Positions 27,741 to 40,372 of a DNA stretch of 64,000 nucleotides are shown here, in pieces (within the stretch, counting starts at the first letter, position 1; the number at the start of each line of letters is the position of its first letter). The DNA is taken from positions 27,351-91,350 of the forward strand of contig CAYURQ010000001.1 of NCBI GenBank assembly GCA_964447315.1, written 5' to 3'. Source of the stretch: Candidatus Woesearchaeota archaeon (lineage in GTDB: Archaea; Nanobdellota; Nanobdellia; Pacearchaeales; GW2011-AR1). The notes under the pieces are model-generated. The model worked only from the letters and a program-made list of their open reading frames with translations. It was not told the origin of the DNA and did not search any database. Position numbers and translations under genes: made by a program.

Positions 27741-27810
27741 AAATAGCAAAGCGTATTTTTTTAAATTATATATTAGAATATTTCATATAAAACTAATGTT
27801 TTTTATTCTT

Positions 27811-27833
27811 CATAAGGGAGTGTTGGAATAAAG
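27811..27833 (+). repeat. G/T-rich boundary element (short variant) CATAAGGGAGTGTTGGAATAAAG
   Basis: related to the recurring element at 35678, 40373, 41489 and 46630. Confidence 0.35.
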
Positions 27834-27910
27834 AAAAGTTTATATAATATTAGAACATTAAAATATAGAGGTGATGGAACCTCAAGATTCCCAATTCTTG
27901 AAAAAATACT

Positions 27911-29068
27911 ATGGCGCAAGTTAAAATGCAAGCACCATTATTAGAAAATATTTTAGATGTTTCTAACTCATTTTACTTAGATACTTTAGGATATAAACCT
28001 GAGAGAACTTCTTTGCAAGAACTTCCTAAAGAAAGTTGGAGTAATCTTGCTAATGAAAGAGGTCTAAACACAAATTCATCTGGAGTATATTTTCCAAGAA
28101 ACCAATTAGCAGTAATAAAACAAGAGAATCCCTTGAGTTTATTTCATGAGTATTTTGGACATGGATTATATTGCGAACAAAGCTTAGATGGAAGAAAATT
28201 AGTTGAATTAGAAAAAAAGCTTTTAGAAAAAGAAAAAAACAGATTTAATGGATATGAATTTACTTTAAAGGAATTGCAGGAGTTTAGGATAGAAAATCCT
28301 ACATTTCAAGAATTAAATAGATTTAAAGAAGAAAACTTAGGAAAATATGAATTATTTGCCTTATGGACAGAATATTTATTGTCAAAAGAGAATAATATGC
28401 TTGGAGATTTTGAAAGAAGATATGATAATTTTTCAAGGAAAGATAAAGAAGTTATTGATTCTACAATAAACTTTTCAGAAAGTTATGGTAATTTAGCTGC
28501 TTTTTATGCTCAAGGAATGAGCAAAATAATGACCAAAGATAGAGTGACAAAATTAATCAAAGATATTTATAAAAAAGATTTAGATAAGATAAAATTTGCA
28601 TTAGTTTATGGTTCTAAAAAACCTTTTAGTGATATTGATGTATTTATGGTTGGCAAGGGAGCTCCTATTGAATCTCATACAGATTGGTTAGATGCAAAAT
28701 ACAAGAATACTGTAGAATTTCAAAATGGATTAAGAAATTTTGATGTAAGAATAAGTGTTCCTTTAATGAATGGGGAATTTTTATTTGGAGATGAAGAATA
28801 TTTCGAAAAATCAAAACAAAAAATACTCTCTCAACCTATTACTGAAAAATCGATAAAATACAATCTGAGATGGTCTTCTAGAATGCAAAGATTGAAAGAA
28901 GAAAATCAAGAAAATGAATTTTTAAGAAAAAAATTTAAAGGATACAGTCTTACTTATATTAATAATGCATTGGCTTTAAGAAAAGGAAAAAGAATCTTTA
29001 CTAAAGAAGGTTTGCTTTCATATTCGCCTAGCGAAAGTAACACAGAATTAAAAGGAGGAAAAGCATAA
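27911..29068 (+). CDS. two-domain hypothetical protein with Pol-beta-type nucleotidyltransferase motif
   Basis: LVYGSKKPFSDIDVFMVG (GS...DxD) at aa ~235; N-terminal domain has HEYFGH; first gene of a tight 4-gene operon. Confidence 0.5.
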   Translation: MAQVKMQAPLLENILDVSNSFYLDTLGYKPERTSLQELPKESWSNLANERGLNTNSSGVYFPRNQLAVIKQENPLSLFHEYFGHGLYCEQSLDGRKLVELEKKLLEKEKNRFNGYEFTLKELQEFRIENPTFQELNRFKEENLGKYELFALWTEYLLSKENNMLGDFERRYDNFSRKDKEVIDSTINFSESYGNLAAFYAQGMSKIMTKDRVTKLIKDIYKKDLDKIKFALVYGSKKPFSDIDVFMVGKGAPIESHTDWLDAKYKNTVEFQNGLRNFDVRISVPLMNGEFLFGDEEYFEKSKQKILSQPITEKSIKYNLRWSSRMQRLKEENQENEFLRKKFKGYSLTYINNALALRKGKRIFTKEGLLSYSPSESNTELKGGKA

Positions 29069-29368
29069 ATGAAACTTGAACAAATGACTGGAGAAATTTC
29101 ACAAGCATCTCAAGGAAGGAGCAAATACTTCGTGGTTGGAGATTTAAGTTACTTGTCTGGATCTCATTTATATATGGCTGATGAACTATATATAAAGAAT
29201 TTTAGAGATGGAAGTATACTCCACATTCATGAAGTAGATGGTAGAATCACTGGTGCTAATATTAGGGGCACTAATGATTTAAGAGGGACTCCAATTAGCA
29301 ACTATCAAGCAACAATGTTAGATGTCTTGCCTGGAAGCTCTAGAACAATCATAAAAAACGGATCATAA
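29069..29368 (+). CDS. hypothetical protein (99 aa), operon member
   Basis: start 1 nt after the preceding stop. Confidence 0.4.
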   Translation: MKLEQMTGEISQASQGRSKYFVVGDLSYLSGSHLYMADELYIKNFRDGSILHIHEVDGRITGANIRGTNDLRGTPISNYQATMLDVLPGSSRTIIKNGS

Positions 29369-29369
29369 A

Positions 29370-29612
29370 ATGGTTTCAGAAAAGCAGATTAAGCACGAGC
29401 TTATAGCCATATATTCTAATTATCTTTCCAGTAAAGAGGATAAAAAGAATAGAGAAAAAGGGTATAAGCTTTATACAAAGTATTTCAATGGTGCAGAAAC
29501 TCTTTTTAGAGAAAATGTGAGTACTGCAATTTGGCAAGCCTTTAATCTGTACGAAGGCAAACTAAAAGAATCCAATGCAAAAAAGATTCTTGAAGATCTT
29601 CGCAAGACTTAA
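29370..29612 (+). CDS. hypothetical protein (80 aa), operon member
   Basis: start 2 nt after the preceding stop. Confidence 0.4.
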   Translation: MVSEKQIKHELIAIYSNYLSSKEDKKNREKGYKLYTKYFNGAETLFRENVSTAIWQAFNLYEGKLKESNAKKILEDLRKT

Positions 29613-29661
29613 TTTTTATTTTATTTTTTATTTTTAGATAATAAAATTCATATTTAGAAAA

Positions 29662-30147
29662 ATGAAAAAACAAGAAATACTAGAAGAACTTAAAAAACAA
29701 TTTGAATTAACAAAGAAAAAACTTAATTTCAAAGCTAGTTATGATGAAATAAATAACATGTCCTATATTGAGGATATGGCTTTAAGCCAGGGTTTTGTTA
29801 GTAACCAATTCCCAAGGCAGATGATTAACAGAATTGTTGAAACCTTTTATGGATGGGTTGGAGAGATTTATTCCTGGATTTATACCCCGCAAATGGACCT
29901 TATTCATGGGCATGAGGGAAAAAGACTTTCTGAACAAGAAAAAAAAGAATTACTTAATATGATTGATAGAATTATGTATTTAGTTAGAAAAAATAAAAGA
30001 ATTGCTTTTCAAGGTTTAATTGAAAAACAAGAAGGAGAATTTGTTGATGAATTAGTTGAATTTGATAAAAAATACTTTAATCCTTTTATGTTAAAATATC
30101 ATAAAAAATTTGAGAATATCTGGAAACAAGAAATAGATAAAAATTAA
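29662..30147 (+). CDS. hypothetical protein (161 aa)
   Basis: ORF only. Confidence 0.4.
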   Translation: MKKQEILEELKKQFELTKKKLNFKASYDEINNMSYIEDMALSQGFVSNQFPRQMINRIVETFYGWVGEIYSWIYTPQMDLIHGHEGKRLSEQEKKELLNMIDRIMYLVRKNKRIAFQGLIEKQEGEFVDELVEFDKKYFNPFMLKYHKKFENIWKQEIDKN

Positions 30148-30158
30148 ATATTTTTCAA

Positions 30159-30467
30159 TTAATAAGGTATCTTTTCACCTTCCCTAGAGCAATGCGTGCA
30201 ATTGCCTTCAAGACCACATTCTCCTCCAGAAAGCCTTAATCCTTGTCCAGGAGCATTATAATTTCCTTGATAATATCTACATCTTGGTTCAATAAGAAAT
30301 TCTTGCCATCCTCCTGAAGATCCAAGAGTGCTACGTCTAGATACTTTCATTCCCCCTCGAACTTCAACATCTTTTTCTTTAGAAGTGCAAGTGAATGGAT
30401 GATCATACTTTTCTCTTAAATTTTCCATTACTTCTTTAAGAACTGAATTTGAATATTCATAACTCAT
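30159..30467 (-). CDS. Cys-rich small protein, paralog 1 (start corrected to MSYEYS...)
   Basis: shares KYDHPF[TI]C, F[LF]IEP[RK]C.YY.G and a C-terminal CxxC with the upstream paralog; the corrected start aligns the two N-termini and removes the overlap. Confidence 0.5.
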   Translation of the reverse strand: MSYEYSNSVLKEVMENLREKYDHPFTCTSKEKDVEVRGGMKVSRRSTLGSSGGWQEFLIEPRCRYYQGNYNAPGQGLRLSGGECGLEGNCTHCSREGEKIPY

Positions 30468-30474
30468 TTTTAAA

Positions 30475-30783
30475 TTATACATTTCCTCCATCTGTTTCAC
30501 AGGCTCTGCAAACACTTTTTCCTGGTTTTCCACAAATTCCAGTGTCTCCTCCTGTATATCCTCCCCTATAATAACTACATTTTGGTTCAATAAAGAATTT
30601 TTGATATCCGCTATTACTAGGAGCTGATCCAGGATACCACCTAACAGTCATCCCTCTAACCCGCACCCCTATCTCCTGCGCTTTTTTACTCCCTCCCTTT
30701 GCAAGAATATTTAGATACCCACAAATAAACGGATGATCATATTTTTTTTCCAGATCCTTTTTTATTTCATTAACATCTGACAT
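30475..30783 (-). CDS. Cys-rich small protein, paralog 2
   Basis: tandem paralog of 30159..30467. Confidence 0.5.
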   Translation of the reverse strand: MSDVNEIKKDLEKKYDHPFICGYLNILAKGGSKKAQEIGVRVRGMTVRWYPGSAPSNSGYQKFFIEPKCSYYRGGYTGGDTGICGKPGKSVCRACETDGGNV

Positions 30784-30939: not shown

Positions 30940-31218
30940 ATGCCATTATTACAAAAAAGAAATCCAAATGCAAGGTCACCAACATTACAAACAGTATTGA
31001 TGGTTGAAAAATTCATTGAAGAAAATAGTGGAGAGTATAAAAAAACAGAATTGTTCAAAAAACTTCCTAGAAAAGTAATGTGGCAAACATTTCAAATAAT
31101 AGTGCAATATCTTGAAGAAAATTATAAAATAATTATTGGAAAGGATGGAATAGTAACCTACATATGGAATCCAAATTTCTATGAAAAAATTAAAGATAGG
31201 CCAGAGATAAAAATATGA
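30940..31218 (+). CDS. putative antitoxin-like protein (family with a paralog at 59574..59861)
   Basis: overlaps the downstream RelE/YoeB-like gene by 4 nt (ATGA). Confidence 0.4.
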   Translation: MPLLQKRNPNARSPTLQTVLMVEKFIEENSGEYKKTELFKKLPRKVMWQTFQIIVQYLEENYKIIIGKDGIVTYIWNPNFYEKIKDRPEIKI

Positions 31219-31535
31219 AATCAAAGGTTGTTTTTGTTGATAATAGCCTAGAAAAAGCGTTTAATTCTCTTGATGAATCAGACCCTATTAAAAAAGCATT
31301 AATTAGGGCAATAAAAAATATTCAACAAGATCCAAAAGCTGGAAGGAGTGTTATAAAAAGAATGATTCCAGAGAGACTAATTAAGAAATATGGGATAAAT
31401 AACTTGATGATTTACAATTTGCCAAATGCATGGAGAATGTTATATTCAGTAACTACTTCTGGAGATATAGAATTGGTGGCTGTAATACTTGATTGGATGA
31501 ATCACAAGGACTATGAGAGATTATTCAAGTTTTAA
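31215..31535 (+). CDS. RelE/YoeB-like toxin candidate
   Basis: C-terminus ...AWRMLYSV...ELVAVILDWMNHKDYERLF resembles YoeB/RelE (WSRRI..HRLVY.V...L.I..CRYHY). Confidence 0.4.
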   Translation: MKSKVVFVDNSLEKAFNSLDESDPIKKALIRAIKNIQQDPKAGRSVIKRMIPERLIKKYGINNLMIYNLPNAWRMLYSVTTSGDIELVAVILDWMNHKDYERLFKF

Positions 31536-31832
31536 TTATTCTTCATCTTCCTCAAGAACTAGTAAACTAAGTAAAACAATTAATACTCCTGCTATTATAG
31601 AAATTACCCAGCTTAGCCAACCTAACTCTAGAGTCTTAAACTTAATTATTAAAAAACCTGCAATACCAAGCAATCCTATGAATATATAATCTTTTCGTAT
31701 TTTTTCTTTGATAATTGGGGCGTGTTCTGAAAATACATCAAGAATTCCAGTAACAATTACAACAACCAATAATATATTTAAGTTAAGATAAGTGCTAACA
31801 AGTCCTGCCCATATTTGTTCAATCAATAACAA
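31536..31832 (-). CDS. 3-TM small membrane protein, copy 1 of 4
   Basis: near-identical copies at 33542, 36225 and 38237; a divergent relative at 44150. Confidence 0.5.
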   Translation of the reverse strand: MLLIEQIWAGLVSTYLNLNILLVVVIVTGILDVFSEHAPIIKEKIRKDYIFIGLLGIAGFLIIKFKTLELGWLSWVISIIAGVLIVLLSLLVLEEDEE

Positions 31833-31873
31833 TATTAGATAAGTTACTAAGACTGTTTGAAAGATGTGATTTA

Positions 31874-31908
31874 CTAGGGATGCGTTGTGTCTGTGGAAAA
31901 GGGAAAAG
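31874..31908 (+). repeat. G/T-rich element variant CTAGGGATGCGTTGTGTCTGTGGAAAAGGGAAAAG
   Basis: 5' region of the membrane-protein gene; related to 33886..33949. Confidence 0.35.
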
Positions 31909-31937
31909 TTTATAGAATTTTAAATTATTATTAAAAC

Positions 31938-32324
31938 ATGGAAGAAAGAGATGTAATAATTAAGATTTATGATAAAAAAGAAGAAATTAATAAAATAATT
32001 AAAGAATTAAAAAAATATTCATTTGAAGATTACATTAAAACTGGCCATTATGAAATTTCTTTATTAACTAAAGGAACAGATGAAGATAAATTGAGAGAGA
32101 TTTATCCTAAATTTGATATTATAGAATTAATAGCATTGAGGAGGCATAAAAATGGTTATGAGAATTATGATGTTTATTATGAACTTGAAAAAGGAAATTA
32201 TGCTTTGTTTGCCATAAATCTAGAAGGTAAAAAACCTAAAATAGATAATGCATTTATAGCTAATAGAATATTCAAAAATTTCTTAAAATCTATGGTAAAA
32301 AGATATGGTAATAAAATGGTTTAA
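31938..32324 (+). CDS. hypothetical protein (128 aa)
   Basis: duplicated at 36633. Confidence 0.45.
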   Translation: MEERDVIIKIYDKKEEINKIIKELKKYSFEDYIKTGHYEISLLTKGTDEDKLREIYPKFDIIELIALRRHKNGYENYDVYYELEKGNYALFAINLEGKKPKIDNAFIANRIFKNFLKSMVKRYGNKMV

Positions 32325-32656
32325 TTAGTCATGCATTGCATAGGTATATTTGCTATAGGAATTTGTTTTATTCCTGCTTTTTCATCTTCTAATCCCACCC
32401 CAATAAATAATTGATCTCTGCTTGGTTTTACAATAAGATTTAATTTTTCAAAGTCTTTTATTTGTTGTATATTAAACCCTATTGCCTCAAGAAAATTAGA
32501 AAACTCTCTTACTTCTAAACTAACTACTTTTCCGTTTCCAGTAGTGCTAATAATAAAATCTCCAAAGCTAAAATTCTTCTTAACTTTCTCATTATCTTGA
32601 ATAGAAGCCACAATTAAGCTGTCTGTATTCTCATCATATTTAGAGACTTTTATCAT
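32321..32656 (-). CDS. DUF2283-like small protein (111 aa)
   Basis: N-term MIKVSKYDENTDSLIVAS resembles DUF2283 (MKI.YD.EADALYIRL). Confidence 0.35.
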   Translation of the reverse strand: MIKVSKYDENTDSLIVASIQDNEKVKKNFSFGDFIISTTGNGKVVSLEVREFSNFLEAIGFNIQQIKDFEKLNLIVKPSRDQLFIGVGLEDEKAGIKQIPIANIPMQCMTN

Positions 32657-32756
32657 ATTTTATAATAATATTTTGTTTATTTATACCTTTCTATTCATCT
32701 TCTAGAGGCAAGTAAAACATATAAATCTTAATAAATAATTAAAACTCCTTTTCTTA

Positions 32757-33545
32757 ATGGGAATTGATTCATCTGAAGCAAATCAAATAATAAACGCTAT
32801 TGATTTTGTAAATCATCATTATGGAGGTTCTGCAAAAGTTACTGGAGAATTCTTTTGTAAAGACTGTAATGAGAAATTTCCTTCTGGAGAATTTCGTTAT
32901 GATAAAGGAGGGTATATTCCAGGGCCAGGTTTAATTAATTTGTCTTCTGAAAGGGCTGCATTTCCCCTTCATGAGTTTCATACTGTTCTTGCTTTAAAAG
33001 ATTCTGATGAGATCTATGAAAAAAGAGTGATTTTAGACTTATTTAATAAATCAAGAAACTGGAATTTTTATGATGTTCCAGAAAGATGCTTTGAGGATTA
33101 TATGAAAATAATGAAAACAAGCTCACTAATTTCTATTGCTAGTCTAGAAGCTAATCATTGGTGTTATTCACTTCATTCAACACCAGATTTTACAGAAGAA
33201 GAAATGCTGGAGGATCCTATTAAAAGGGATATTCTAGAAATGGATAGGAAGATTAATCTTAGGCCAAATAAATTAGAAAATGAGGTTAAACCAGAAATAA
33301 ATCGGGTTTTCAAAGACATAATTGGTAATAGAGAAATTCCAATAATTTATATTATTCCAGAAGAATTTAGAGGAGATTTTGGAGAGGAATATTATAAAAG
33401 GGATTTTATTGAAGCAACATACAATACTTTTAAAGCAAAGAACATACTTTTTCCAGATGAAAAAAGAAATTCTGTTATTAAAATAATTGATTCTTACTTT
33501 AAAGAAGCAGAATTAAAGCATGAAAGACACCCTTCTCCTTTTTAG
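32757..33545 (+). CDS. hypothetical protein (262 aa)
   Basis: duplicated at 37452. Confidence 0.45.
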   Translation: MGIDSSEANQIINAIDFVNHHYGGSAKVTGEFFCKDCNEKFPSGEFRYDKGGYIPGPGLINLSSERAAFPLHEFHTVLALKDSDEIYEKRVILDLFNKSRNWNFYDVPERCFEDYMKIMKTSSLISIASLEANHWCYSLHSTPDFTEEEMLEDPIKRDILEMDRKINLRPNKLENEVKPEINRVFKDIIGNREIPIIYIIPEEFRGDFGEEYYKRDFIEATYNTFKAKNILFPDEKRNSVIKIIDSYFKEAELKHERHPSPF

Positions 33546-33844
33546 GATTCTTCATCCTCTTCTAAAACAAGTAAACTAAGTAAAACAATTAATACTCCTG
33601 CAACAAGAGATATTACCCATGACAACCATCCTAATTCTAGTGTTTTAAACTTGATTATCAGGAAACCTGCAATACCAAGCAATCCTATAAATATGTAATC
33701 TTTAGGTTTTATTTTTTCTTTAATAATTGGAGCGTGTTCTGAAAATACATCAAGAATTCCAGTAACAATTACAACAACTAATAAGATATTTAAGTTAAGA
33801 TAAGTGCTAACAAGTCCTGCCCATATTTGCTCAATTAATAACAA
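33542..33844 (-). CDS. 3-TM small membrane protein, copy 2 of 4
   Basis: ~90% identical to copy 1. Confidence 0.5.
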   Translation of the reverse strand: MLLIEQIWAGLVSTYLNLNILLVVVIVTGILDVFSEHAPIIKEKIKPKDYIFIGLLGIAGFLIIKFKTLELGWLSWVISLVAGVLIVLLSLLVLEEDEES

Positions 33845-33885
33845 TATTAGATAAGTTACTAAGACTGTTTGAAAGGTGTGATTTA

Positions 33886-33949
33886 CTAGGGATGTGTTGT
33901 GTCCACGGAATAGGAGGTGTTGGAGTGAGGGTTTGGGAATGTTGATAGG
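33886..33949 (+). repeat. G/T-rich element (GGGTTGGAATGTTGATAGG subfamily)
   Basis: shares GGGTT(T)GG(G)AAT(A)TGTTGATAGGAT with 58344..58409 and 59472..59524. Confidence 0.4.
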
Positions 33950-33960
33950 ATTATTTTAAT

Positions 33961-34602
33961 TTATATAGAAGAATTAATATCTCCATGCACTACTAATGAT
34001 TGATAATTTTCAAATAAGAAAGGGGCATAAAATTGGGCTTCTGGAAAATCTTTAGTTGTACTTAGATACCAAATATTCTCTTCCATTTTATCTTTAGCTC
34101 TTTCAACTGACTTTTCTATAGTAGAACCTTCTATTAATGCTTTAACAAGGATATTTGAGGGTTCTAAAAATAATTTTGCTATTTTATCTCTTCTTGGAGA
34201 TGCCTCCTGATTAGGATCTTTCCCAAGATTAAAATCTCTCTCATATCCAATAAAACAAATGGCTCCTTTAGTAACTATTATCTTCCCTAGTTTTTGTCCT
34301 GATGAACAAGTTAGGGAATAAACAACCATGCCTGAAAGAACTTTTGCATTTTCTTTAGAGATTATTATCTCATTTTTATGCCCAGCAATCAAATCAGGAT
34401 TACCATGCCCATTAAACATAATAAAATCTGGTTTTTGCTTTTTTATAATTTTTAAGATTTCTTTTTTATTTGCTTTTTCTCTTTCCCTATTTATTGTTTT
34501 GTTTCCTCTTTCTTTCGAATATTTAACTAATTCTTTACTATAATAATATAAATAAGAGAGGGTCCCATCATGCTCGGGTCTGGAAAAAATAATATTACTC
34601 AT
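33961..34602 (-). CDS. clan CD cysteine peptidase-like protein (minimal caspase/legumain-like fold)
   Basis: hydrophobic strand + His-Gly (FIMFNGHG), then 34 aa later hydrophobic strand + Cys (VVYSLTCSSGQ); this is the His/Cys dyad arrangement of caspase/legumain/gingipain. Confidence 0.45.
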   Translation of the reverse strand: MSNIIFSRPEHDGTLSYLYYYSKELVKYSKERGNKTINREREKANKKEILKIIKKQKPDFIMFNGHGNPDLIAGHKNEIIISKENAKVLSGMVVYSLTCSSGQKLGKIIVTKGAICFIGYERDFNLGKDPNQEASPRRDKIAKLFLEPSNILVKALIEGSTIEKSVERAKDKMEENIWYLSTTKDFPEAQFYAPFLFENYQSLVVHGDINSSI

Positions 34603-34604
34603 AA

Positions 34605-34841
34605 TTATTGTTTTACTAAAAAACCTCTTTTGAAAGCTTTAAGATAGTTTAATTGGATTTCAACTATTCTATTTCCAATATCTGTATTATCTTCTATGTT
34701 TTTTATCAACTCATCTCTTTTCATAAATTTTCCATCAGACATTCCAAATGAAACACTTACATTTGGGGAAGCCTGCCTAATTCTTTCTATGACTATTTCT
34801 TTCTTTAACTGATCTATATTCTCTTGTTTATTTTCTTTCAT
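34605..34841 (-). CDS. hypothetical protein (78 aa), operon member
   Basis: stop 3 nt before the peptidase-like gene start. Confidence 0.4.
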   Translation of the reverse strand: MKENKQENIDQLKKEIVIERIRQASPNVSVSFGMSDGKFMKRDELIKNIEDNTDIGNRIVEIQLNYLKAFKRGFLVKQ

Positions 34842-35020
34842 ATTATTTCTAACTCTTTTAGTATTTTTAATATTTTCTCTCCATTTTCTGTCTTATTCTT
34901 TATTTCTTGGTAAGCAAGATTCCAACTTATTGGATTTTTATCTATAATTACTATTGTATTGTTTCTTTCTTTTATAGGCACTCCAGAATAAACTTTAAAG
35001 AAATCTTCTTCATTTACCAT
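34838..35020 (-). CDS. hypothetical protein (60 aa), first gene of operon
   Basis: 4-nt overlap with the next gene. Confidence 0.35.
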   Translation of the reverse strand: MVNEEDFFKVYSGVPIKERNNTIVIIDKNPISWNLAYQEIKNKTENGEKILKILKELEII

Positions 35021-35203
35021 TATTAAATTAGTAAATTAATCTTTTTAATTTTTGTCATTTCTTTTTCCTCGGCTTATTCCAATAAGGACTTTGGGGTTTC
35101 ATGAAACACTGAAGAGAAAAGGATATTTAAATGCTGTTTTTTGGAGTGTGGGTAAAACAATTCATCTTAATCTATATATTTTTTAATTAATGATTCTATA
35201 ATT

Positions 35204-35464
35204 TTAATTATACACTTTATCTCTTTTATCAATTTTTACTATCAAAATTATTTTCTGAGCTTCTTTAATTTTATATAATGCTCTAAAGTACCCAATTCTA
35301 TACCTAAAAACCATCTCATTATTATCTCTCCCAATAAACTTTGAATCACTTGGTACAGGAGTATTTTCAAGGTTTTTTAATCTCTTTTCAATCCTTTCTC
35401 TTTCTTTGGTATCTAATTTGTTTAAAAAATCCTGGGCTTTAACAGACAGCTCTACAGAATACAT
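35204..35464 (-). CDS. relE: RelE/ParE-family toxin
   Basis: MYSVELSVKAQDFLNKLDTKERERIEKRLKNLENTP...FRYRIGYFRALYKI...IILIVKIDKRDKVY matches the RelE/ParE consensus throughout. Confidence 0.75.
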   Translation of the reverse strand: MYSVELSVKAQDFLNKLDTKERERIEKRLKNLENTPVPSDSKFIGRDNNEMVFRYRIGYFRALYKIKEAQKIILIVKIDKRDKVYN

Positions 35465-35465
35465 T

Positions 35466-35627
35466 TTACAGTCTCTTTGTTCTGCCTTCTTTTAAATCTT
35501 CTTCAGCTTGATTTAAAGAGTTTATGTCGTCTTGGGTTAGAGTTACATCTATTATGTGCTCCTTTAAAGAATCCATATCTTTTTTTAAATTGTCTAGTTT
35601 ACTTATGATTAATTCTTCGTTTTCCAT
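35466..35627 (-). CDS. putative antitoxin (53 aa, not in the supplied ORF track)
   Basis: MENEELIISKLDNLKKDMDSLKEHIIDVTLTQDDINSLNQAEEDLKEGRTKRL; stop 1 nt before the relE start. Confidence 0.5.
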   Translation of the reverse strand: MENEELIISKLDNLKKDMDSLKEHIIDVTLTQDDINSLNQAEEDLKEGRTKRL

Positions 35628-35677
35628 ATCTTCCAATATAAAAATAACTATATAATCTTTTCGTATTTTTTATTTTT

Positions 35678-35715
35678 CATAAGGGGTGTTGGTTGGAGCA
35701 TTTTAGGGAGTATTG
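35678..35715 (+). repeat. G/T-rich boundary element CATAAGGGGTGTTGGTTGGAGCATTTTAGGGAGTATTG
   Basis: marks the end of duplicated unit 1; recurs at 40373, 41489 and 46630. Confidence 0.6.
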
Positions 35716-36224: not shown

Positions 36225-36527
36225 CTAATCTTGTTGTTCACCTTCTTCTAAAACAAGCAAACTAAGTAAAACAATTAATACTCCTGCTATTATAGAAATT
36301 ACCCAGCTTAGCCAACCTAACTCTAGAGTCTTAAACTTAATTATTAAAAAACCTGCAATACCAAGCAATCCTATGAATATATAATCTTTTCGTATTTTTT
36401 CTTTGATAATTGGGGCGTGTTCTGAAAATACATCAAGAATTCCAGTAACAATTACAACAACCAATAATATATTTAAGTTAAGATAAGTGCTAACAAGTCC
36501 TGCCCATATTTGTTCAATCAATAACAA
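36225..36527 (-). CDS. 3-TM small membrane protein, copy 3 of 4
   Basis: C-terminus differs from copy 1 (EEGEQQD vs EEDEE) at the duplication junction. Confidence 0.5.
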   Translation of the reverse strand: MLLIEQIWAGLVSTYLNLNILLVVVIVTGILDVFSEHAPIIKEKIRKDYIFIGLLGIAGFLIIKFKTLELGWLSWVISIIAGVLIVLLSLLVLEEGEQQD

Positions 36528-36632
36528 TATTAGATAAGTTACTAAGACTGTTTGAAAGATGTGATTTACTAGGGATGCGTTGTGTCTGTGGAAAAGGGAA
36601 AAGTTTATAGAATTTTAAATTATTATTAAAAC

Positions 36633-37019
36633 ATGGAAGAAAGAGATGTAATAATTAAGATTTATGATAAAAAAGAAGAAATTAATAAAATAATTAAAGA
36701 ATTAAAAAAATATTCATTTGAAGATTACATTAAAACTGGCCATTATGAAATTTCTTTATTAACTAAAGGAACAGATGAAGATAAATTGAGAGAGATTTAT
36801 CCTAAATTTGATATTATAGAATTAATAGCATTGAGGAGGCATAAAAATGGTTATGAGAATTATGATGTTTATTATGAACTTGAAAAAGGAAATTATGCTT
36901 TGTTTGCCATAAATCTAGAAGGTAAAAAACCTAAAATAGATAATGCATTTATAGCTAATAGAATATTCAAAAATTTCTTAAAATCTATGGTAAAAAGATA
37001 TGGTAATAAAATGGTTTAA
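36633..37019 (+). CDS. hypothetical protein (128 aa), duplicate
   Basis: identical to 31938..32324. Confidence 0.45.
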   Translation: MEERDVIIKIYDKKEEINKIIKELKKYSFEDYIKTGHYEISLLTKGTDEDKLREIYPKFDIIELIALRRHKNGYENYDVYYELEKGNYALFAINLEGKKPKIDNAFIANRIFKNFLKSMVKRYGNKMV

Positions 37020-37351
37020 TTAGTCATGCATTGCATAGGTATATTTGCTATAGGAATTTGTTTTATTCCTGCTTTTTCATCTTCTAATCCCACCCCAATA
37101 AATAATTGATCTCTGCTTGGTTTTACAATAAGATTTAATTTTTCAAAGTCTTTTATTTGTTGTATATTAAACCCTATTGCCTCAAGAAAATTAGAAAACT
37201 CTCTTACTTCTAAACTAACTACTTTTCCGTTTCCAGTAGTGCTAATAATAAAATCTCCAAAGCTAAAATTCTTCTTAACTTTCTCATTATCTTGAATAGA
37301 AGCCACAATTAAGCTGTCTGTATTCTCATCATATTTAGAGACTTTTATCAT
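37016..37351 (-). CDS. DUF2283-like small protein, duplicate
   Basis: identical to 32321..32656. Confidence 0.35.
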   Translation of the reverse strand: MIKVSKYDENTDSLIVASIQDNEKVKKNFSFGDFIISTTGNGKVVSLEVREFSNFLEAIGFNIQQIKDFEKLNLIVKPSRDQLFIGVGLEDEKAGIKQIPIANIPMQCMTN

Positions 37352-37451
37352 ATTTTATAATAATATTTTGTTTATTTATACCTTTCTATTCATCTTCTAG
37401 AGGCAAGTAAAACATATAAATCTTAATAAATAATTAAAACTCCTTTTCTTA

Positions 37452-38240
37452 ATGGGAATTGATTCATCTGAAGCAAATCAAATAATAAACGCTATTGATT
37501 TTGTAAATCATCATTATGGAGGTTCTGCAAAAGTTACTGGAGAATTCTTTTGTAAAGACTGTAATGAGAAATTTCCTTCTGGAGAATTTCGTTATGATAA
37601 AGGAGGGTATATTCCAGGGCCAGGTTTAATTAATTTGTCTTCTGAAAGGGCTGCATTTCCCCTTCATGAGTTTCATACTGTTCTTGCTTTAAAAGATTCT
37701 GATGAGATCTATGAAAAAAGAGTGATTTTAGACTTATTTAATAAATCAAGAAACTGGAATTTTTATGATGTTCCAGAAAGATGCTTTGAGGATTATATGA
37801 AAATAATGAAAACAAGCTCACTAATTTCTATTGCTAGTCTAGAAGCTAATCATTGGTGTTATTCACTTCATTCAACACCAGATTTTACAGAAGAAGAAAT
37901 GCTGGAGGATCCTATTAAAAGGGATATTCTAGAAATGGATAGGAAGATTAATCTTAGGCCAAATAAATTAGAAAATGAGGTTAAACCAGAAATAAATCGG
38001 GTTTTCAAAGACATAATTGGTAATAGAGAAATTCCAATAATTTATATTATTCCAGAAGAATTTAGAGGAGATTTTGGAGAGGAATATTATAAAAGGGATT
38101 TTATTGAAGCAACATACAATACTTTTAAAGCAAAGAACATACTTTTTCCAGATGAAAAAAGAAATTCTGTTATTAAAATAATTGATTCTTACTTTAAAGA
38201 AGCAGAATTAAAGCATGAAAGACACCCTTCTCCTTTTTAG
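37452..38240 (+). CDS. hypothetical protein (262 aa), duplicate
   Basis: identical to 32757..33545. Confidence 0.45.
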   Translation: MGIDSSEANQIINAIDFVNHHYGGSAKVTGEFFCKDCNEKFPSGEFRYDKGGYIPGPGLINLSSERAAFPLHEFHTVLALKDSDEIYEKRVILDLFNKSRNWNFYDVPERCFEDYMKIMKTSSLISIASLEANHWCYSLHSTPDFTEEEMLEDPIKRDILEMDRKINLRPNKLENEVKPEINRVFKDIIGNREIPIIYIIPEEFRGDFGEEYYKRDFIEATYNTFKAKNILFPDEKRNSVIKIIDSYFKEAELKHERHPSPF

Positions 38241-38539
38241 GATTCTTCATCCTCTTCTAAAACAAGTAAACTAAGTAAAACAATTAATACTCCTGCAACA
38301 AGAGATATTACCCATGACAACCATCCTAATTCTAGTGTTTTAAACTTGATTATCAGGAAACCTGCAATACCAAGCAATCCTATAAATATGTAATCTTTAG
38401 GTTTTATTTTTTCTTTAATAATTGGAGCGTGTTCTGAAAATACATCAAGAATTCCAGTAACAATTACAACAACTAATAAGATATTTAAGTTAAGATAAGT
38501 GCTAACAAGTCCTGCCCATATTTGCTCAATTAATAACAA
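38237..38539 (-). CDS. 3-TM small membrane protein, copy 4 of 4
   Basis: identical to 33542..33844. Confidence 0.5.
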   Translation of the reverse strand: MLLIEQIWAGLVSTYLNLNILLVVVIVTGILDVFSEHAPIIKEKIKPKDYIFIGLLGIAGFLIIKFKTLELGWLSWVISLVAGVLIVLLSLLVLEEDEES

Positions 38540-38655
38540 TATTAGATAAGTTACTAAGACTGTTTGAAAGGTGTGATTTACTAGGGATGTGTTGTGTCCA
38601 CGGAATAGGAGGTGTTGGAGTGAGGGTTTGGGAATGTTGATAGGATTATTTTAAT

Positions 38656-39297
38656 TTATATAGAAGAATTAATATCTCCATGCACTACTAATGATTGATA
38701 ATTTTCAAATAAGAAAGGGGCATAAAATTGGGCTTCTGGAAAATCTTTAGTTGTACTTAGATACCAAATATTCTCTTCCATTTTATCTTTAGCTCTTTCA
38801 ACTGACTTTTCTATAGTAGAACCTTCTATTAATGCTTTAACAAGGATATTTGAGGGTTCTAAAAATAATTTTGCTATTTTATCTCTTCTTGGAGATGCCT
38901 CCTGATTAGGATCTTTCCCAAGATTAAAATCTCTCTCATATCCAATAAAACAAATGGCTCCTTTAGTAACTATTATCTTCCCTAGTTTTTGTCCTGATGA
39001 ACAAGTTAGGGAATAAACAACCATGCCTGAAAGAACTTTTGCATTTTCTTTAGAGATTATTATCTCATTTTTATGCCCAGCAATCAAATCAGGATTACCA
39101 TGCCCATTAAACATAATAAAATCTGGTTTTTGCTTTTTTATAATTTTTAAGATTTCTTTTTTATTTGCTTTTTCTCTTTCCCTATTTATTGTTTTGTTTC
39201 CTCTTTCTTTCGAATATTTAACTAATTCTTTACTATAATAATATAAATAAGAGAGGGTCCCATCATGCTCGGGTCTGGAAAAAATAATATTACTCAT
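38656..39297 (-). CDS. clan CD cysteine peptidase-like protein, duplicate
   Basis: identical to 33961..34602. Confidence 0.45.
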   Translation of the reverse strand: MSNIIFSRPEHDGTLSYLYYYSKELVKYSKERGNKTINREREKANKKEILKIIKKQKPDFIMFNGHGNPDLIAGHKNEIIISKENAKVLSGMVVYSLTCSSGQKLGKIIVTKGAICFIGYERDFNLGKDPNQEASPRRDKIAKLFLEPSNILVKALIEGSTIEKSVERAKDKMEENIWYLSTTKDFPEAQFYAPFLFENYQSLVVHGDINSSI

Positions 39298-39299
39298 AA

Positions 39300-39536
39300 T
39301 TATTGTTTTACTAAAAAACCTCTTTTGAAAGCTTTAAGATAGTTTAATTGGATTTCAACTATTCTATTTCCAATATCTGTATTATCTTCTATGTTTTTTA
39401 TCAACTCATCTCTTTTCATAAATTTTCCATCAGACATTCCAAATGAAACACTTACATTTGGGGAAGCCTGCCTAATTCTTTCTATGACTATTTCTTTCTT
39501 TAACTGATCTATATTCTCTTGTTTATTTTCTTTCAT
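39300..39536 (-). CDS. hypothetical protein (78 aa), duplicate
   Basis: identical to 34605..34841. Confidence 0.4.
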   Translation of the reverse strand: MKENKQENIDQLKKEIVIERIRQASPNVSVSFGMSDGKFMKRDELIKNIEDNTDIGNRIVEIQLNYLKAFKRGFLVKQ

Positions 39537-39715
39537 ATTATTTCTAACTCTTTTAGTATTTTTAATATTTTCTCTCCATTTTCTGTCTTATTCTTTATTT
39601 CTTGGTAAGCAAGATTCCAACTTATTGGATTTTTATCTATAATTACTATTGTATTGTTTCTTTCTTTTATAGGCACTCCAGAATAAACTTTAAAGAAATC
39701 TTCTTCATTTACCAT
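39533..39715 (-). CDS. hypothetical protein (60 aa), duplicate
   Basis: identical to 34838..35020. Confidence 0.35.
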   Translation of the reverse strand: MVNEEDFFKVYSGVPIKERNNTIVIIDKNPISWNLAYQEIKNKTENGEKILKILKELEII

Positions 39716-39898
39716 TATTAAATTAGTAAATTAATCTTTTTAATTTTTGTCATTTCTTTTTCCTCGGCTTATTCCAATAAGGACTTTGGGGTTTCATGAA
39801 ACACTGAAGAGAAAAGGATATTTAAATGCTGTTTTTTGGAGTGTGGGTAAAACAATTCATCTTAATCTATATATTTTTTAATTAATGATTCTATAATT

Positions 39899-40159
39899 TT
39901 AATTATACACTTTATCTCTTTTATCAATTTTTACTATCAAAATTATTTTCTGAGCTTCTTTAATTTTATATAATGCTCTAAAGTACCCAATTCTATACCT
40001 AAAAACCATCTCATTATTATCTCTCCCAATAAACTTTGAATCACTTGGTACAGGAGTATTTTCAAGGTTTTTTAATCTCTTTTCAATCCTTTCTCTTTCT
40101 TTGGTATCTAATTTGTTTAAAAAATCCTGGGCTTTAACAGACAGCTCTACAGAATACAT
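39899..40159 (-). CDS. relE: RelE/ParE-family toxin, duplicate
   Basis: identical to 35204..35464. Confidence 0.75.
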   Translation of the reverse strand: MYSVELSVKAQDFLNKLDTKERERIEKRLKNLENTPVPSDSKFIGRDNNEMVFRYRIGYFRALYKIKEAQKIILIVKIDKRDKVYN

Positions 40160-40160
40160 T

Positions 40161-40322
40161 TTACAGTCTCTTTGTTCTGCCTTCTTTTAAATCTTCTTCA
40201 GCTTGATTTAAAGAGTTTATGTCGTCTTGGGTTAGAGTTACATCTATTATGTGCTCCTTTAAAGAATCCATATCTTTTTTTAAATTGTCTAGTTTACTTA
40301 TGATTAATTCTTCGTTTTCCAT
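40161..40322 (-). CDS. putative antitoxin (53 aa), duplicate
   Basis: identical to 35466..35627 by the +4695 offset. Confidence 0.5.
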   Translation of the reverse strand: MENEELIISKLDNLKKDMDSLKEHIIDVTLTQDDINSLNQAEEDLKEGRTKRL

Positions 40323-40372
40323 ATCTTCCAATATAAAAATAACTATATAATCTTTTCGTATTTTTTATTTTT

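What the first reader, a model, noticed from the sequence alone, without database searches (positions are those of the whole stretch)
27911..30147. Uncharacterised four-gene operon led by a two-domain nucleotidyltransferase-motif protein
The 385-aa protein has a Pol-beta-type NTase signature (YGSKKPFSDIDVFMVG) in its second half and an unrelated N-terminal domain containing HEYFGH. It is followed, at 1-2 nt spacing, by 99-aa and 80-aa ORFans and then a 161-aa ORFan. A G/T-rich element variant sits upstream at 27811.

NTase-led small operons in accessory regions are typical of nucleotide-signalling or TA-type defense systems, but the partners here match nothing I recognise.
Basis: partly seen in the sequence, partly recalled or inferred. 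Interest (0 to 1): 0.55.

Follow-up and report, generated by a model that had tools for sequence, protein, structure and literature searches.

The report
Peptidase–nucleotidyltransferase with polymorphic leader-tagged gene cassettes
In a tiny symbiotic (DPANN) archaeon, a two-headed enzyme (zinc protease plus nucleotide-adding domain) is encoded next to small swappable gene pairs that share a conserved disordered "handle", which looks like an undescribed toxin/immunity-type conflict system.

Summary
The four ORFs are real and at the stated coordinates, but none is an ORFan.

- **A (385 aa):** at least 230 full-length homologues, almost all in DPANN archaea. A confident AlphaFold model shows an N-terminal gluzincin-type metallopeptidase fold (invariant HEYFGH plus YExFAxWxE), then an MNT/KNTase-type nucleotidyltransferase and a HEPN-like helical bundle.
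- **B (99 aa):** adjacent to A in 49 of 54 assessable loci, downstream or, in a divergent branch, upstream. It has a conserved, disordered ~35-aa leader (L-E and two near-invariant tyrosines) fused to one of at least six unrelated C-terminal modules.
- **Partner (C here):** each module type has its own partner family (adjusted Rand index 0.88). One A gene can be followed by up to four cassettes. Their leader DNA is 87–100% identical, then identity collapses at the module boundary.
- **D (161 aa):** a widespread small protein that joins the module only in some lineages.

Best reading: a polymorphic effector/partner conflict module in which A docks on the shared leader and processes it by cleavage and/or tyrosine nucleotidylation. 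The anatomy is shown. The mechanism and any toxicity are inferred. I found no description of it in the literature I could search.

The parts
27839..27847 (+). TATA-like box (TTTATATAA) about 65 nt upstream of the A start codon; candidate archaeal promoter of the A-B-C operon
   Evidence: Read directly from the sequence. This is an inference and has not been tested.
27911..29068 (+). Gene A, 385 aa: bifunctional metallopeptidase-like / nucleotidyltransferase protein. No TM segment or signal-like hydrophobic stretch, so presumably cytoplasmic.
   Evidence: ORF. At least 230 full-length homologues at 48-64% identity. AF2 model pLDDT 91, pTM 0.84. Maximum KD19 hydrophobicity 0.7.
27932..28525 (+). 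A residues ~8-205: gluzincin-type metallopeptidase-like domain (three beta-strands, active-site helix 74-90, 'glutamate helix' 130-160)
28145..28162 (+). HEYFGH (H79-H84): HExxGH zinc-binding/catalytic motif
   Evidence: FHEYFGHGL is invariant in all 59 non-redundant homologues, down to about 27% identity. The HEXXGH hexapeptide is the M49 DPP III signature (PMC5805324).
28346..28372 (+). YELFALWTE (Y146-E154): candidate third zinc ligand (E147) and second conserved glutamate (E154)
   Evidence: YE[LG]FAxWxE is kept in all homologues, whereas E101 is lost in the distant branch. Assigning E147 as the ligand is an inference.
28556..28792 (+). A residues ~216-294: MNT/KNTase-type nucleotidyltransferase core
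28598..28648 (+). ALVYGSKKPFSDIDVFM (residues 230-246): hG[GS]...DxD catalytic motif
   Evidence: G234, S235, D241 and D243 are invariant or nearly invariant.
28679..28702 (+). TDWLDAKY (residues 257-264) with D261: third catalytic carboxylate
   Evidence: D261 is invariant, and WLD is kept in all homologues.
28793..29020 (+). A residues ~295-370: HEPN-like helical bundle without the Rx4-6H RNase motif
29054..29058 (+). GGAGG Shine-Dalgarno site for gene B, embedded in the codons of A's disordered 'LKGG' tail, 10 nt before B's ATG
   Evidence: ttgAAAGGAGGT is conserved 8-15 nt upstream of B's ATG in 29 of 38 loci. The tail has pLDDT below 50.
29069..29368 (+). Gene B, 99 aa: leader-tagged polymorphic protein
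   Evidence: B is adjacent to A in 49 of 54 assessable loci. No Pfam, PADLOC, PHROG or PDB match.
29069..29173 (+). B leader (residues 1-35): conserved, intrinsically disordered recognition segment with L3-E4, Y20 (29126-29128) and Y35 (29171-29173)
   Evidence: Conservation across 63 distinct leaders: L 62/63, E 61/63, Tyr 59/63 and 62/63. pLDDT below 55. Leader DNA is 87-100% identical between paralogues in one array.
29183..29353 (+). B variable module (residues ~39-95), 'type 0' (LHIHE...TGANI...NYxA): small beta-rich domain
29370..29612 (+). Gene C, 80 aa: helical cognate partner of type-0 B modules; starts 1 nt after B's stop (stop-start coupling)
   Evidence: The C family follows type-0 B genes in 25-26 pairs. 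Module/partner adjusted Rand index is 0.88. The TAAnATG junction is typical, and only 5 of 60 partner genes have an SD-like site.
29613..29635 (+). Oligo-T tract (TTTTTATTTTATTTTTTATTTTT) directly after C: probable archaeal intrinsic terminator of the A-B-C unit
   Evidence: Read from the sequence. The terminator role is inferred from established knowledge of oligo-T termination in archaea.
29662..30147 (+). Gene D, 161 aa: helical protein of a widespread DPANN family; optional, lineage-restricted appendage of the module
   Evidence: At least 152 representative clusters. D lies next to a B-partner cassette in the window, L005, L015, L057, L072 and L073, but occurs in only 4 of about 59 A loci, and distant relatives sit in unrelated contexts. 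No Pfam or PDB match.

Best explanation
This is a three-component, DPANN-specific conflict-type module.

**Components.**
- Gene A encodes a cytoplasmic bifunctional enzyme: a gluzincin-like zinc peptidase domain, an MNT-type nucleotidyltransferase, and a HEPN-like scaffold.
- Each B gene encodes a short, conserved, intrinsically disordered N-terminal leader fused to one of many unrelated small C-terminal modules. These modules are the putative effectors or toxins.
- The gene that follows each B, translationally coupled to it by a stop-start junction, encodes a partner specific to that module type. This is the putative immunity protein, antitoxin or chaperone.

**Proposed mechanism.** A is the only invariant protein and the leader is the only invariant part of B. 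I therefore propose that A recognises the leader and processes every B protein in the array. The MNT domain would nucleotidylate one of the two near-invariant leader tyrosines, as its closest structural relatives MntA and HalB do to protein tyrosines. The peptidase domain would cleave the leader or linker. Together these would control whether the module is active or inactive.

**Shown:** gene linkage, domain folds, intact catalytic motifs, leader/module architecture, cognate pairing, cassette arrays with sharp recombination-like boundaries, and translational coupling.

**Inferred:** that A binds the leader, which chemistry is applied to it, that the modules are toxic, and that the partners neutralise them.
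For: **A family.** There are at least 230 full-length homologues, almost all from Pacearchaeota, Woesearchaeota or Nanoarchaeota. Both catalytic motif sets are intact in all 59 non-redundant homologues down to about 27% identity. Folds were assigned from a confident model (pLDDT 91).

**Linkage.**
- B is adjacent to A in 49 of 54 assessable loci.
- The linkage survives inversion of gene order: A-B-partner in the main branch and B-partner-A in the divergent branch.
- Flanking genes differ between loci.
- The SD site for B is embedded in A's coding tail.

**B architecture.** The leader is conserved yet disordered and the module is folded. L-E and two tyrosines are the most conserved leader positions: 61-62/63 for L-E, 59/63 and 62/63 for the tyrosines.

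**Polymorphism.**
- At least 6 module types and at least 6 partner types are mutually unrelated by hhalign.
- Module and partner types, clustered independently, give an adjusted Rand index of 0.88, against a maximum of 0.22 in 2,000 shuffles.
- Arrays hold up to 4 cassettes.
- Within an array, leader DNA is 87-100% identical and then drops abruptly to 20-40%.

**Other support.**
- Partner genes start 1-4 nt after B's stop codon.
- Some genomes carry several copies, and one carries a truncated copy.
- Precedent for tyrosine nucleotidylation by the nearest structural relatives: MntA to HepT (PMC7641770, PMC13000451) and HalB self-priming on a tyrosine (PMC13434031).
- The constant N-terminus, variable C-terminus and downstream cognate gene match the organising logic of polymorphic toxin systems (PMC3482391).
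Against: - No module or partner matches any known toxin, immunity or antitoxin family, by sequence or by fold. Toxicity is therefore unproven.
- Charge complementarity between modules and partners is weak (mean pI 7.7 against 6.4).
- No secretion signal, transporter or trafficking domain is linked to the module, so the classical 'exported polymorphic toxin' picture does not fit.
- No leaderless orphan cassettes were found.
- Contact between A and the leader is inferred from conservation logic only. No complex could be modelled here.
- Flanking genes are mostly housekeeping. Five A loci show no B (L045, L055, L058-L060).
- The HExxGH spacing is atypical for gluzincins, and peptidase activity is untested.
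Confidence: 0.5

Rival explanations
1. **Type VII-like toxin-antitoxin array.** B modules are intracellular toxins. A is an enzymatic 'master antitoxin' that neutralises all of them by (oligo)AMPylating the shared leader tyrosine, with the peptidase domain degrading or recycling them. The partner proteins are second-layer stoichiometric antitoxins or chaperones. The module would serve addiction or abortive infection rather than attack on other cells. This is a more specific sub-case of the best explanation, and it differs in placing the function strictly inside the cell.
For: - The NTase half resembles MntA and the fused MNT-HEPN architecture (PMC7641770, PMC13000451).
- All proteins are cytoplasmic with no export signal.
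- The tight stop-start coupling of B and partner is typical of TA pairs.
- There is a weak PADLOC hit to the NTase of PDC-M05, an archaea-enriched NTase+HEPN candidate system (PMC12988326).
Against: - The HEPN-like bundle lacks Rx4-6H, and no HEPN toxin gene is present.
- No known TA system uses one enzyme for several unrelated toxins.
- The role of the highly conserved peptidase domain is left unexplained.
- There is no evidence that the modules are toxic.
Confidence: 0.2
2. **Coincidental linkage.** A is a housekeeping or general-purpose enzyme, for example a nucleotidyltransferase acting on RNA or small molecules with a peptidase-like accessory domain. B-partner pairs are selfish two-gene cassettes that merely prefer to insert next to it and use its transcription. 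The shared leader would be a recombination handle, not a recognition tag for A.
For: - Flanks are housekeeping genes: SMC and RNase HII here, and DNA polymerase B, FEN1, ribosomal proteins and RtcB elsewhere.
- Makarova et al. noted a DPANN-wide 'MNT fused to HEPN' cluster 'typically in house-keeping context' (PMC6393860).
- A is well conserved.
- Three to five A loci lack B.
Against: - The linkage holds in 49 of 54 loci and survives reversal of gene order.
- B's ribosome-binding site is built into A's coding sequence, and the two genes often overlap.
- The leader is conserved at the protein level across lineages where the DNA has diverged, including two tyrosines. That argues for a protein-level function.
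- A occurs in several copies, and as a truncated copy, in some genomes.
Confidence: 0.12
3. **RiPP-like or pro-protein maturation pathway.** B proteins are precursors whose leader guides a maturase (A) that modifies and then cleaves them. The products would be secreted or structural peptides or proteins. The partners would be dedicated chaperones or self-protection proteins.
For: - Conserved leader plus variable core.
- Several precursor genes per locus, with near-identical leaders.
- A peptidase and a modifying enzyme are fused in A.
Against: - The cores are 60-170-aa folded domains, not short peptides.
- Each core type needs its own partner family, which is atypical for RiPPs.
- No transporter, RRE-type domain or known RiPP enzyme family was detected.
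- There are no Cys, Ser or Thr-rich core patterns.
Confidence: 0.08
4. **Nucleotide or oligonucleotide-signal defence (Hailong-like).** A's NTase would make a nucleotide polymer or signal, possibly primed on a tyrosine, that holds the B effectors in check until an invader perturbs it.
Against: - Similarity is at fold level only (19-21% identity).
- There is no HalA-like membrane channel, and B and the partners have no TM segments.
- PADLOC gives no system-level hit.
- The model does not explain the peptidase domain or the polymorphic cognate partners.
Confidence: 0.07

Closest known systems
Polymorphic toxin-immunity systems (Zhang, Aravind et al. 2012, PMC3482391)
   Same: - Constant N-terminal part fused to many unrelated C-terminal modules.
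- A cognate small gene immediately downstream of each module.
- Several cassettes in tandem.
- Sharp identity breakpoints at the constant/variable junction, suggesting recombination.
- A processing metallopeptidase associated with the system.
   Different: - The constant part is only a ~35-aa disordered leader, not a trafficking or repeat domain.
- No secretion system is linked.
- The peptidase acts in trans and is fused to an NTase.
- No module or partner belongs to a known Tox/Ntox or Imm family.
- No leaderless orphan cassettes.
- The proteins are about 100-150 aa, not hundreds to thousands.
Type VII HepT/MntA (HEPN/MNT) toxin-antitoxin systems, including fused MNT-HEPN FhepTA (PMC7641770, PMC13000451)
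   Same: A's C-terminal half is an MNT-type NTase followed by a HEPN-like bundle. The catalytic GS...DxD...D residues are intact. The family's known chemistry, AMPylation of a protein tyrosine, matches the two near-invariant tyrosines in the B leader.
   Different: - The HEPN-like part lacks the Rx4-6H RNase motif.
- There is an extra, better-conserved N-terminal metallopeptidase domain.
- The partners are not HEPN proteins.
- One enzyme is linked to several unrelated cassettes.
- The sequence does not reach Pfam thresholds.
Hailong HalB nucleotidyltransferase (PDB 9dbh/9dbj; Tan et al. 2025 as summarised in PMC13434031)
   Different: There is no HalA-type membrane channel partner. HalB has no peptidase domain. 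There is no evidence here for poly-dA synthesis.
Gluzincin metallopeptidases (thermolysin M4, aminopeptidase N/ERAP1 M1, oligoendopeptidase F M3) and the HEXXGH motif of DPP III (M49; PMC5805324)
   Different: - Only the minimal catalytic core is present.
- There is no sequence-level match to any peptidase family in Pfam or NCBIfam.
- The M49 second motif EEXR(K)AE(D) and its two-lobe ~700-aa architecture are absent.
- About 60 residues separate the motif from the candidate Glu ligand.
DPANN dark-matter cluster cls.004259 (NEQ050), 'MNT fused to HEPN, house-keeping context' (Makarova et al. 2019, PMC6393860)
   Same: The lineage (DPANN), the MNT+HEPN description and the housekeeping-type flanks all match A's C-terminal half and its context.
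   Different: The paper mentions no peptidase domain and no associated polymorphic cassettes.
Toxin-antitoxin-chaperone (TAC) systems with a chaperone-addiction tag (bioRxiv 10.1101/2024.02.24.581848, abstract)
   Same: The logic is tripartite: a conserved disordered extension on one component is the handle for a third, conserved protein.
   Different: In TAC the third protein is a SecB-like chaperone, not an enzyme, and the tag is on the antitoxin's C-terminus. There is no sequence or fold relationship.

Membership tests
Pol-beta superfamily nucleotidyltransferase (MNT/KNTase type) | hG[GS] motif, [DE]x[DE] motif and a third catalytic carboxylate | tested here: met
   G234-S235, D241-x-D243 and D261 are invariant or nearly invariant in 47-59 homologues.
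Pol-beta superfamily nucleotidyltransferase (MNT/KNTase type) | NTase alpha/beta fold | tested here: met
Pol-beta superfamily nucleotidyltransferase (MNT/KNTase type) | Reaches the curated Pfam/NCBIfam family threshold | tested here: not met
   PF18765 scores 16.8 bits against a cut-off of 26.9. ANT(4')-Ia scores 11.4 against 500.
HepT/MntA (HEPN/MNT) type VII TA | HEPN domain with the Rx4-6H RNase motif, either as a separate gene or fused | tested here: not met
HepT/MntA (HEPN/MNT) type VII TA | The NTase AMPylates a tyrosine of its partner | not testable with these tools
   Only indirect support: two near-invariant tyrosines in the B leader.
Gluzincin zinc metallopeptidases | Thermolysin-like catalytic fold with the active-site helix | tested here: met
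Gluzincin zinc metallopeptidases | HExxH motif plus a downstream Glu ligand | tested here: inconclusive
   The motif is HExxGH, one residue longer. Invariant E147 and E154 are available as the third ligand. Zinc binding and activity are untested.
M49 dipeptidyl peptidase III | HEXXGH together with the second motif EEXR(K)AE(D), in a two-lobe ~700-aa enzyme | tested here: not met
Polymorphic toxin systems (PMC3482391) | Constant N-terminal region fused to diverse, unrelated C-terminal domains | tested here: met
   The leader is conserved in 63 distinct sequences. At least 6 module types are unrelated by hhalign, with a maximum probability of 26%.
Polymorphic toxin systems (PMC3482391) | A cognate immunity gene immediately downstream of each toxin | tested here: inconclusive
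   A type-specific partner gene follows 60 of 62 B genes, with an adjusted Rand index of 0.88. An immunity function is untested.
Polymorphic toxin systems (PMC3482391) | Diversification by recombination of cassettes | tested here: met
   Within arrays there are abrupt drops in identity (87-100% to 20-40%) at the leader/module junction. However, no leaderless orphan cassettes were found.
Polymorphic toxin systems (PMC3482391) | Recognisable toxin domain | tested here: not met
Polymorphic toxin systems (PMC3482391) | N-terminal trafficking domain or a linked secretion system | tested here: not met
   There is no signal or TM segment in B (maximum KD19 1.19). No secretion genes are conserved in the neighbourhoods.
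CBASS / cyclic-nucleotide signalling defence | cGAS/DncV-like CD-NTase plus an effector with a nucleotide-sensing domain | tested here: not met
   The PADLOC scan gives only a weak hit to the PDC-M05A NTase (E 0.0044) and no CBASS components. The structural neighbours are MNT, KNTase and HalB, not cGAS-like enzymes.
RiPP biosynthetic clusters | Short precursor peptide (leader plus core) with known-class tailoring enzymes or an RRE | tested here: not met
   The cores are 60-170-aa folded domains. No RiPP enzyme family scores above noise; the GggB hit is 16 bits against a cut-off of 650.

The most novel reading that the evidence does not exclude
This would be a previously undescribed class of archaeal conflict system. 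A single trans-acting enzyme, combining a zinc peptidase with a tyrosine-directed nucleotidyltransferase, reads a universal disordered leader 'barcode'. Through it, the enzyme arms or disarms a whole interchangeable arsenal of unrelated effector proteins, each with its own immunity partner. Because it is confined to DPANN episymbionts, it could be part of how these tiny cells fight viruses, rivals or their hosts. It would also be the first example of leader-guided protein nucleotidylation coupled to proteolysis.
Probability: 0.3. Interest if true: 0.85.

Novelty: new variant of a known kind. Interest (0 to 1): 0.66.

Why it matters
- **DPANN biology.** DPANN archaea have tiny genomes, few recognised defence or offence systems, and a large share of 'dark matter' genes. 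This module is widespread in them, with at least 230 A homologues, and is wholly unannotated. It shows the signatures of an arms-race locus: polymorphic cognate cassettes and recombination breakpoints.
- **If the mechanism holds.** It would add a new way to organise toxin/immunity or TA systems: one enzyme controlling many unrelated effectors through a shared disordered tag. It would give functions to at least a dozen uncharacterised protein families. It would also provide a new bifunctional protein-modifying enzyme (peptidase plus tyrosine NTase) with a defined, portable recognition tag.
- **Annotation.** The result also corrects the 'ORFan' label for four gene families.

Tried and rejected
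1. **A's 'LKGG' tail as a ubiquitin-like or conjugation signal: rejected.** The conserved tail is encoded by AAAGGAGGT, the Shine-Dalgarno site of B, 8-15 nt before its ATG. The tail is disordered in the model.
2. **B's 'K.GS' C-terminal tail as a conserved processing or RBS motif: rejected.** Only 13 of 60 B proteins have it, and partner genes rarely have an SD site.
3. **D as a core fourth component: rejected.** It is present in only 4 A loci, its family is mostly found elsewhere, and an oligo-T tract separates it from C. Its recurrent adjacency to the module (L005, L015, L057, L072, L073) remains unexplained.
4. **Viral or mobile-element origin: no support.** There are no A relatives on IMG/VR contigs and no PHROG hits.
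6. **Sequence-profile searches of B, C and D against PDB and Pfam:** nothing significant.
7. **Hidden homology among module types or partner types (recurring HINYE/LHIHE motif):** not supported by hhalign.
8. **Leaderless orphan cassettes:** none found. The extra tblastn hits were additional B genes at contig ends or genes my ORF caller had missed.
9. **My first test of the G/T-rich element was too strict and wrongly suggested chance.** That test used a 15-mer. The 10-nt core is clearly enriched, but it is specific to this genome and unrelated to the module.
10. **Unavailable resources.** Makarova et al. 2019 mBio (PMC6509191) is not held, and NEQ050 could not be retrieved, so prior description cannot be fully excluded.
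11. **Charge complementarity of modules and partners:** only a weak trend.
Full report
**1. The observation.**

The window is low-GC (about 27%). It carries archaeal housekeeping genes just upstream of the finding: SMC, RNase HII and a DUF1616 membrane protein.

All are on the + strand, with gaps of 0, 1 and 49 nt. HEYFGH (residues 79-84) and YGSKKPFSDIDVFMVG (residues 233-248) are both present.

Family libraries give almost nothing. There is a sub-threshold Pfam Polbeta hit for A (E 0.008). B, C and D have no hits in Pfam, NCBIfam, PADLOC or PHROGs. Rfam finds nothing in the window. Public sources give none of the four proteins a name.

**2. A is a conserved two-domain enzyme, not an orphan.**

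A has at least 230 full-length homologues at 48-64% identity. Their sources name them Pacearchaeota, Woesearchaeota or Nanoarchaeota. A scan of species-representative genomes returned 63 loci. Nearly all are DPANN, and a few genomes carry two copies.

Foldseek agrees. It also shows that no solved chain spans both halves, since the query-normalised TM-score is at most 0.31.

All 59 non-redundant homologues, down to about 27% identity, keep FHEYFGHGL, YE[LG]FAxWxE, YGSxKxxSDIDLF and WLD. Both active sites therefore look functional. E101 is lost in the divergent branch, so E147 is the better candidate for the third zinc ligand (inference).

HExxGH is the one-residue-longer zinc motif known from DPP III/M49 (PMC5805324). 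The second M49 motif and the M49 architecture are absent. The HEPN-like bundle has no conserved Rx4-6H motif.

The peptidase-like domain is the most conserved part of A: 45% mean pairwise identity, against 41% for the NTase core and 35% for the helical bundle.

**3. A trap avoided.**

Nearly every homologue ends in (Q/E)LKGG, which looks like a ubiquitin-type tail. The encoding DNA is ttgAAAGGAGGT, a near-perfect Shine-Dalgarno sequence 8-15 nt upstream of B's ATG. The tail is disordered in the model. So its conservation reflects translational coupling of B to A. It is not evidence for a protein-level signal.

**4. B and its partner are co-conserved with A.**

In four unrelated contigs, the A homologue is followed by genes of about 100-117 aa and about 80-104 aa, while the flanking genes differ: DNA polymerase B and FEN1, ribosomal proteins and ThyA, PIN-MazE, or RtcB-archease-Fic.

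Iterated HMM searches on all ORFs of the fetched loci, plus manual inspection, gave these counts among 59 non-redundant loci with a full-length A:

| Position of B relative to A | Loci |
|---|---|
| Immediately downstream | 39 |
| Upstream on the same strand, as B-partner-A (mostly the divergent A branch, 27-36% identity) | 10 |
| None detected (L045, L055, L058-L060) | 5 |
| Not assessable (contig ends) | 5 |

That is 49 of 54 assessable loci. Linkage that survives a change of gene order, in otherwise unrelated neighbourhoods, is strong evidence of a functional connection. No relatives of A were found on viral contigs.

**5. B is a leader-tagged polymorphic protein.**

*Leader.* B proteins share an N-terminal segment of about 35 residues (M.LEQ..YQP....Y.V.DLE.LSASALY.G), followed by a G/S-rich linker of variable length and then very different C-terminal parts. 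In 63 distinct leaders the most conserved positions are L-E near the N-terminus (62/63 and 61/63) and two tyrosines (59/63 and 62/63). These are Y20 and Y35 in the window's B. They are kept even in the divergent branch, whose leader reads ..ALEQML..P..GQ..Y.TID.Y..G..LYTGP.

*Partners.* Sixty of 62 B genes are followed within a few nucleotides by another small gene. Only 26 of these partners belong to the C80 family, and the rest fall into several other families. Profile-profile comparison finds no relationship between six module types (maximum probability 26%) or between six partner types (maximum 7%).

*Cognate pairing.* Modules and partners, clustered independently, map onto each other with an adjusted Rand index of 0.88. 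Shuffles give a mean of 0.00 and a maximum of 0.22 in 2,000 trials.

*Arrays.* One A gene can be followed by 2-4 cassettes of different types (L005, L020, L025, L042, L047). Within such arrays the leader-coding DNA is 87-100% identical for about 100-190 nt. Identity then drops abruptly to 20-40%.

*Translation.* Partner genes usually start 1-4 nt after B's stop codon (TAAnATG) and rarely have their own SD site, only 5 of 60. This is typical of stoichiometrically coupled pairs.

None of the B or partner families hits Pfam or PDB sequence profiles. No protein in the module has a TM segment or a signal-like hydrophobic stretch.

**6. D.**

D belongs to a broad family of proteins of about 160 aa, with at least 152 representative clusters. 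It has no Pfam or PDB match.

Close D homologues sit directly after the last B-partner cassette in the window, L005, L015, L072 and L073. In L057 the order is B-partner-D-A. However, D occurs in only 4 of the A loci even with a broad profile, and distant relatives lie in unrelated contexts.

In the window, C is followed at once by a 23-nt oligo-T tract and then an A/T-rich stretch before D's ATG. By established knowledge of archaeal termination, this suggests a separate transcript. In L005 and L057, by contrast, D overlaps or abuts the preceding gene.

I therefore treat A-B-partner as the conserved core and D as an optional, lineage-restricted appendage of unknown role.

**7. The upstream element.**

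My first test, with a 15-mer, suggested chance. That test was too strict. The core GGGAGTRTTG occurs 3 times exactly (0.06 expected) and 13 times with up to one mismatch (2.7 expected; 0 of 100 shuffles reach this). All copies are on the + strand.

It is part of a G/T-rich intergenic element of about 50 nt, present at roughly 35661, 40356, 41470 and 46611. The copy at 27796-27827 is a truncated variant. The element is absent from all 78 related loci and has no significant RNA fold. It is a feature of this genome and not of the module.

A TATA-like box (27839-27847) is the more likely promoter element (inference).

**8. How it most likely works.**

A is the only invariant protein. The leader is the only invariant part of B, and it is disordered on its own. 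The partners are unrelated to one another, so they cannot all be the leader's receptor. The simplest reading is that A recognises the leader.

A offers two chemistries:

- **Nucleotidylation.** The nearest structural relatives of its NTase domain both attach nucleotides to protein tyrosines. MntA oligo-AMPylates a tyrosine of HepT (PMC7641770, PMC13000451). HalB primes poly-dA synthesis on a tyrosine hydroxyl of its own (PMC13434031). The leader's best-conserved side chains include two tyrosines.
- **Proteolysis.** The peptidase domain has the beta-sheet-plus-helix groove that gluzincins use to bind extended peptides. A G/S-rich linker separates leader from module.

I therefore propose that A nucleotidylates and/or cleaves the leader to switch the modules on or off, and that each module is held by its cognate partner. 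The whole forms a polymorphic effector/immunity (or toxin/antitoxin) module under diversifying selection.

The architecture is shown. Binding, chemistry and toxicity are inferred.

**9. Comparison with known systems.**

- **Polymorphic toxin systems (PMC3482391).** The organising logic matches: constant N-terminus, variable C-terminus, downstream cognate gene, recombination-like breakpoints, and an associated processing metallopeptidase. Several defining features are not met. There is no trafficking domain or secretion system, no recognisable toxin or immunity family, and no orphan cassettes, and the peptidase acts in trans.
- **HepT/MntA type VII TA and fused MNT-HEPN.** A's C-terminal half resembles these, but it lacks the HEPN RNase motif and any HEPN partner.
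- **DPANN cluster 'MNT fused to HEPN, house-keeping context'.** Makarova et al. (PMC6393860) list this cluster (cls.004259/NEQ050), which may be the same family. This could not be tested. That paper mentions neither the peptidase domain nor the cassettes.
- **Archaeal defence survey.** A recent survey (PMC12988326) lists only NTase+HEPN (PDC-M05), AbiE and SoFic as enriched in DPANN.
- **Prior description.** The 2019 mBio survey of archaeal polymorphic toxins is not in the library, so a prior description cannot be fully excluded.

**10. Verdict.**

This is not a generic NTase operon with ORFan partners. It is a widespread, unannotated, DPANN-specific module with a bifunctional peptidase-NTase and polymorphic leader-tagged cassettes. 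I classify it as a new variant of a known kind (polymorphic cassette or TA-type conflict systems). There is a realistic chance that its mechanism, leader-guided protein nucleotidylation coupled to proteolysis by one trans-acting enzyme, is new. Interest 0.66.

Noticed in passing
window 31564-35715 and 36259-40410: A 4,152-bp segment is repeated with 100% identity, separated by a 543-nt spacer. It carries ORFs of 128, 111, 262, 100 and 213 aa. The right end of both copies falls exactly on GGGAGTATTG, the core of the G/T-rich element. It is either a very recent duplication or a MAG assembly artefact.
   Followed up: partly
window ~35661-35715, 40356-40410, 41470-41545, 46611-46667 (truncated copy 27796-27827): A G/T-rich intergenic element of about 50 nt (TTTTTTATTTTCCATAGGGGGTGTTGGTTGGAGCATTTTAGGGAGTATT), always on the + strand and significantly enriched. 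It has no Rfam hit and no significant RNA fold, and it is absent from related loci. Its function is unknown.
   Followed up: partly
window 31536-31832, 33542-33844, 36225-36527, 38237-38539 (- strand): Four paralogous small membrane proteins of about 98-100 aa (MLLIEQIWAGLVSTYLNLNILLVVV...). They bracket the repeated gene blocks. No Pfam hit.
   Followed up: no
window 30940-31218 and 31215-31535 (+): Two genes of 92 and 106 aa overlapping by 4 nt. The second has a weak ParE-toxin hit (Pfam E 0.019, below the cut-off). This may be a type II TA pair just downstream of the module.
   Followed up: no
window 30159-30590 and 30475-30783 (- strand): Two overlapping ORFs (143 and 102 aa) encoding paralogous Cys-rich proteins. 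They share KYDHPF(T/I)C and F(L/F)IEP(R/K)C.YY.G.Y motifs, have no family hit, and run convergent to gene D.
   Followed up: no
window 27868-27923: An SD-like GAGGTGA overlaps an ATG at 27873. That ATG opens a 16-codon upstream ORF, which overlaps A's start codon in another frame. A itself has no nearby SD site. Not examined in other loci.
   Followed up: no
L015 9952-10242 and 11109-11652: A second, truncated A fragment (96 aa) is followed about 0.9 kb later by an intact B-C pair, in the same locus as a complete A-B-partner-D set. This suggests decay of a duplicated module.
   Followed up: no
L003, L005, L023 (A/B junction): In these loci the GGAGG in A's tail lies about 30 nt from B's ATG, with a short hairpin (aagtag...ctactt) between them. 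The hairpin could bring the SD site closer to the start codon or regulate coupling.
   Followed up: no
L058, L059, L060 (about 7530-8000): Divergent A homologues with no detectable B are instead preceded directly by a 154-161-aa gene. By eye it looks like an Lrp/AsnC-type regulator. This may be a different wiring of the enzyme.
   Followed up: no
L007 4884-5822 (- strand): A Fic-domain gene lies between an upstream B-C pair and the A gene. Fic proteins are also protein AMPylators, and SoFic is reported as enriched in DPANN (PMC12988326).
   Followed up: no
L032, L042, L056, L057, L067 (record titles): Several contigs that carry the module come from MAGs labelled Gammaproteobacteria, Paceibacteria, Methanosarcinales or 'bacterium'. 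These are probably mis-binned DPANN contigs and not true occurrences outside DPANN.
   Followed up: no
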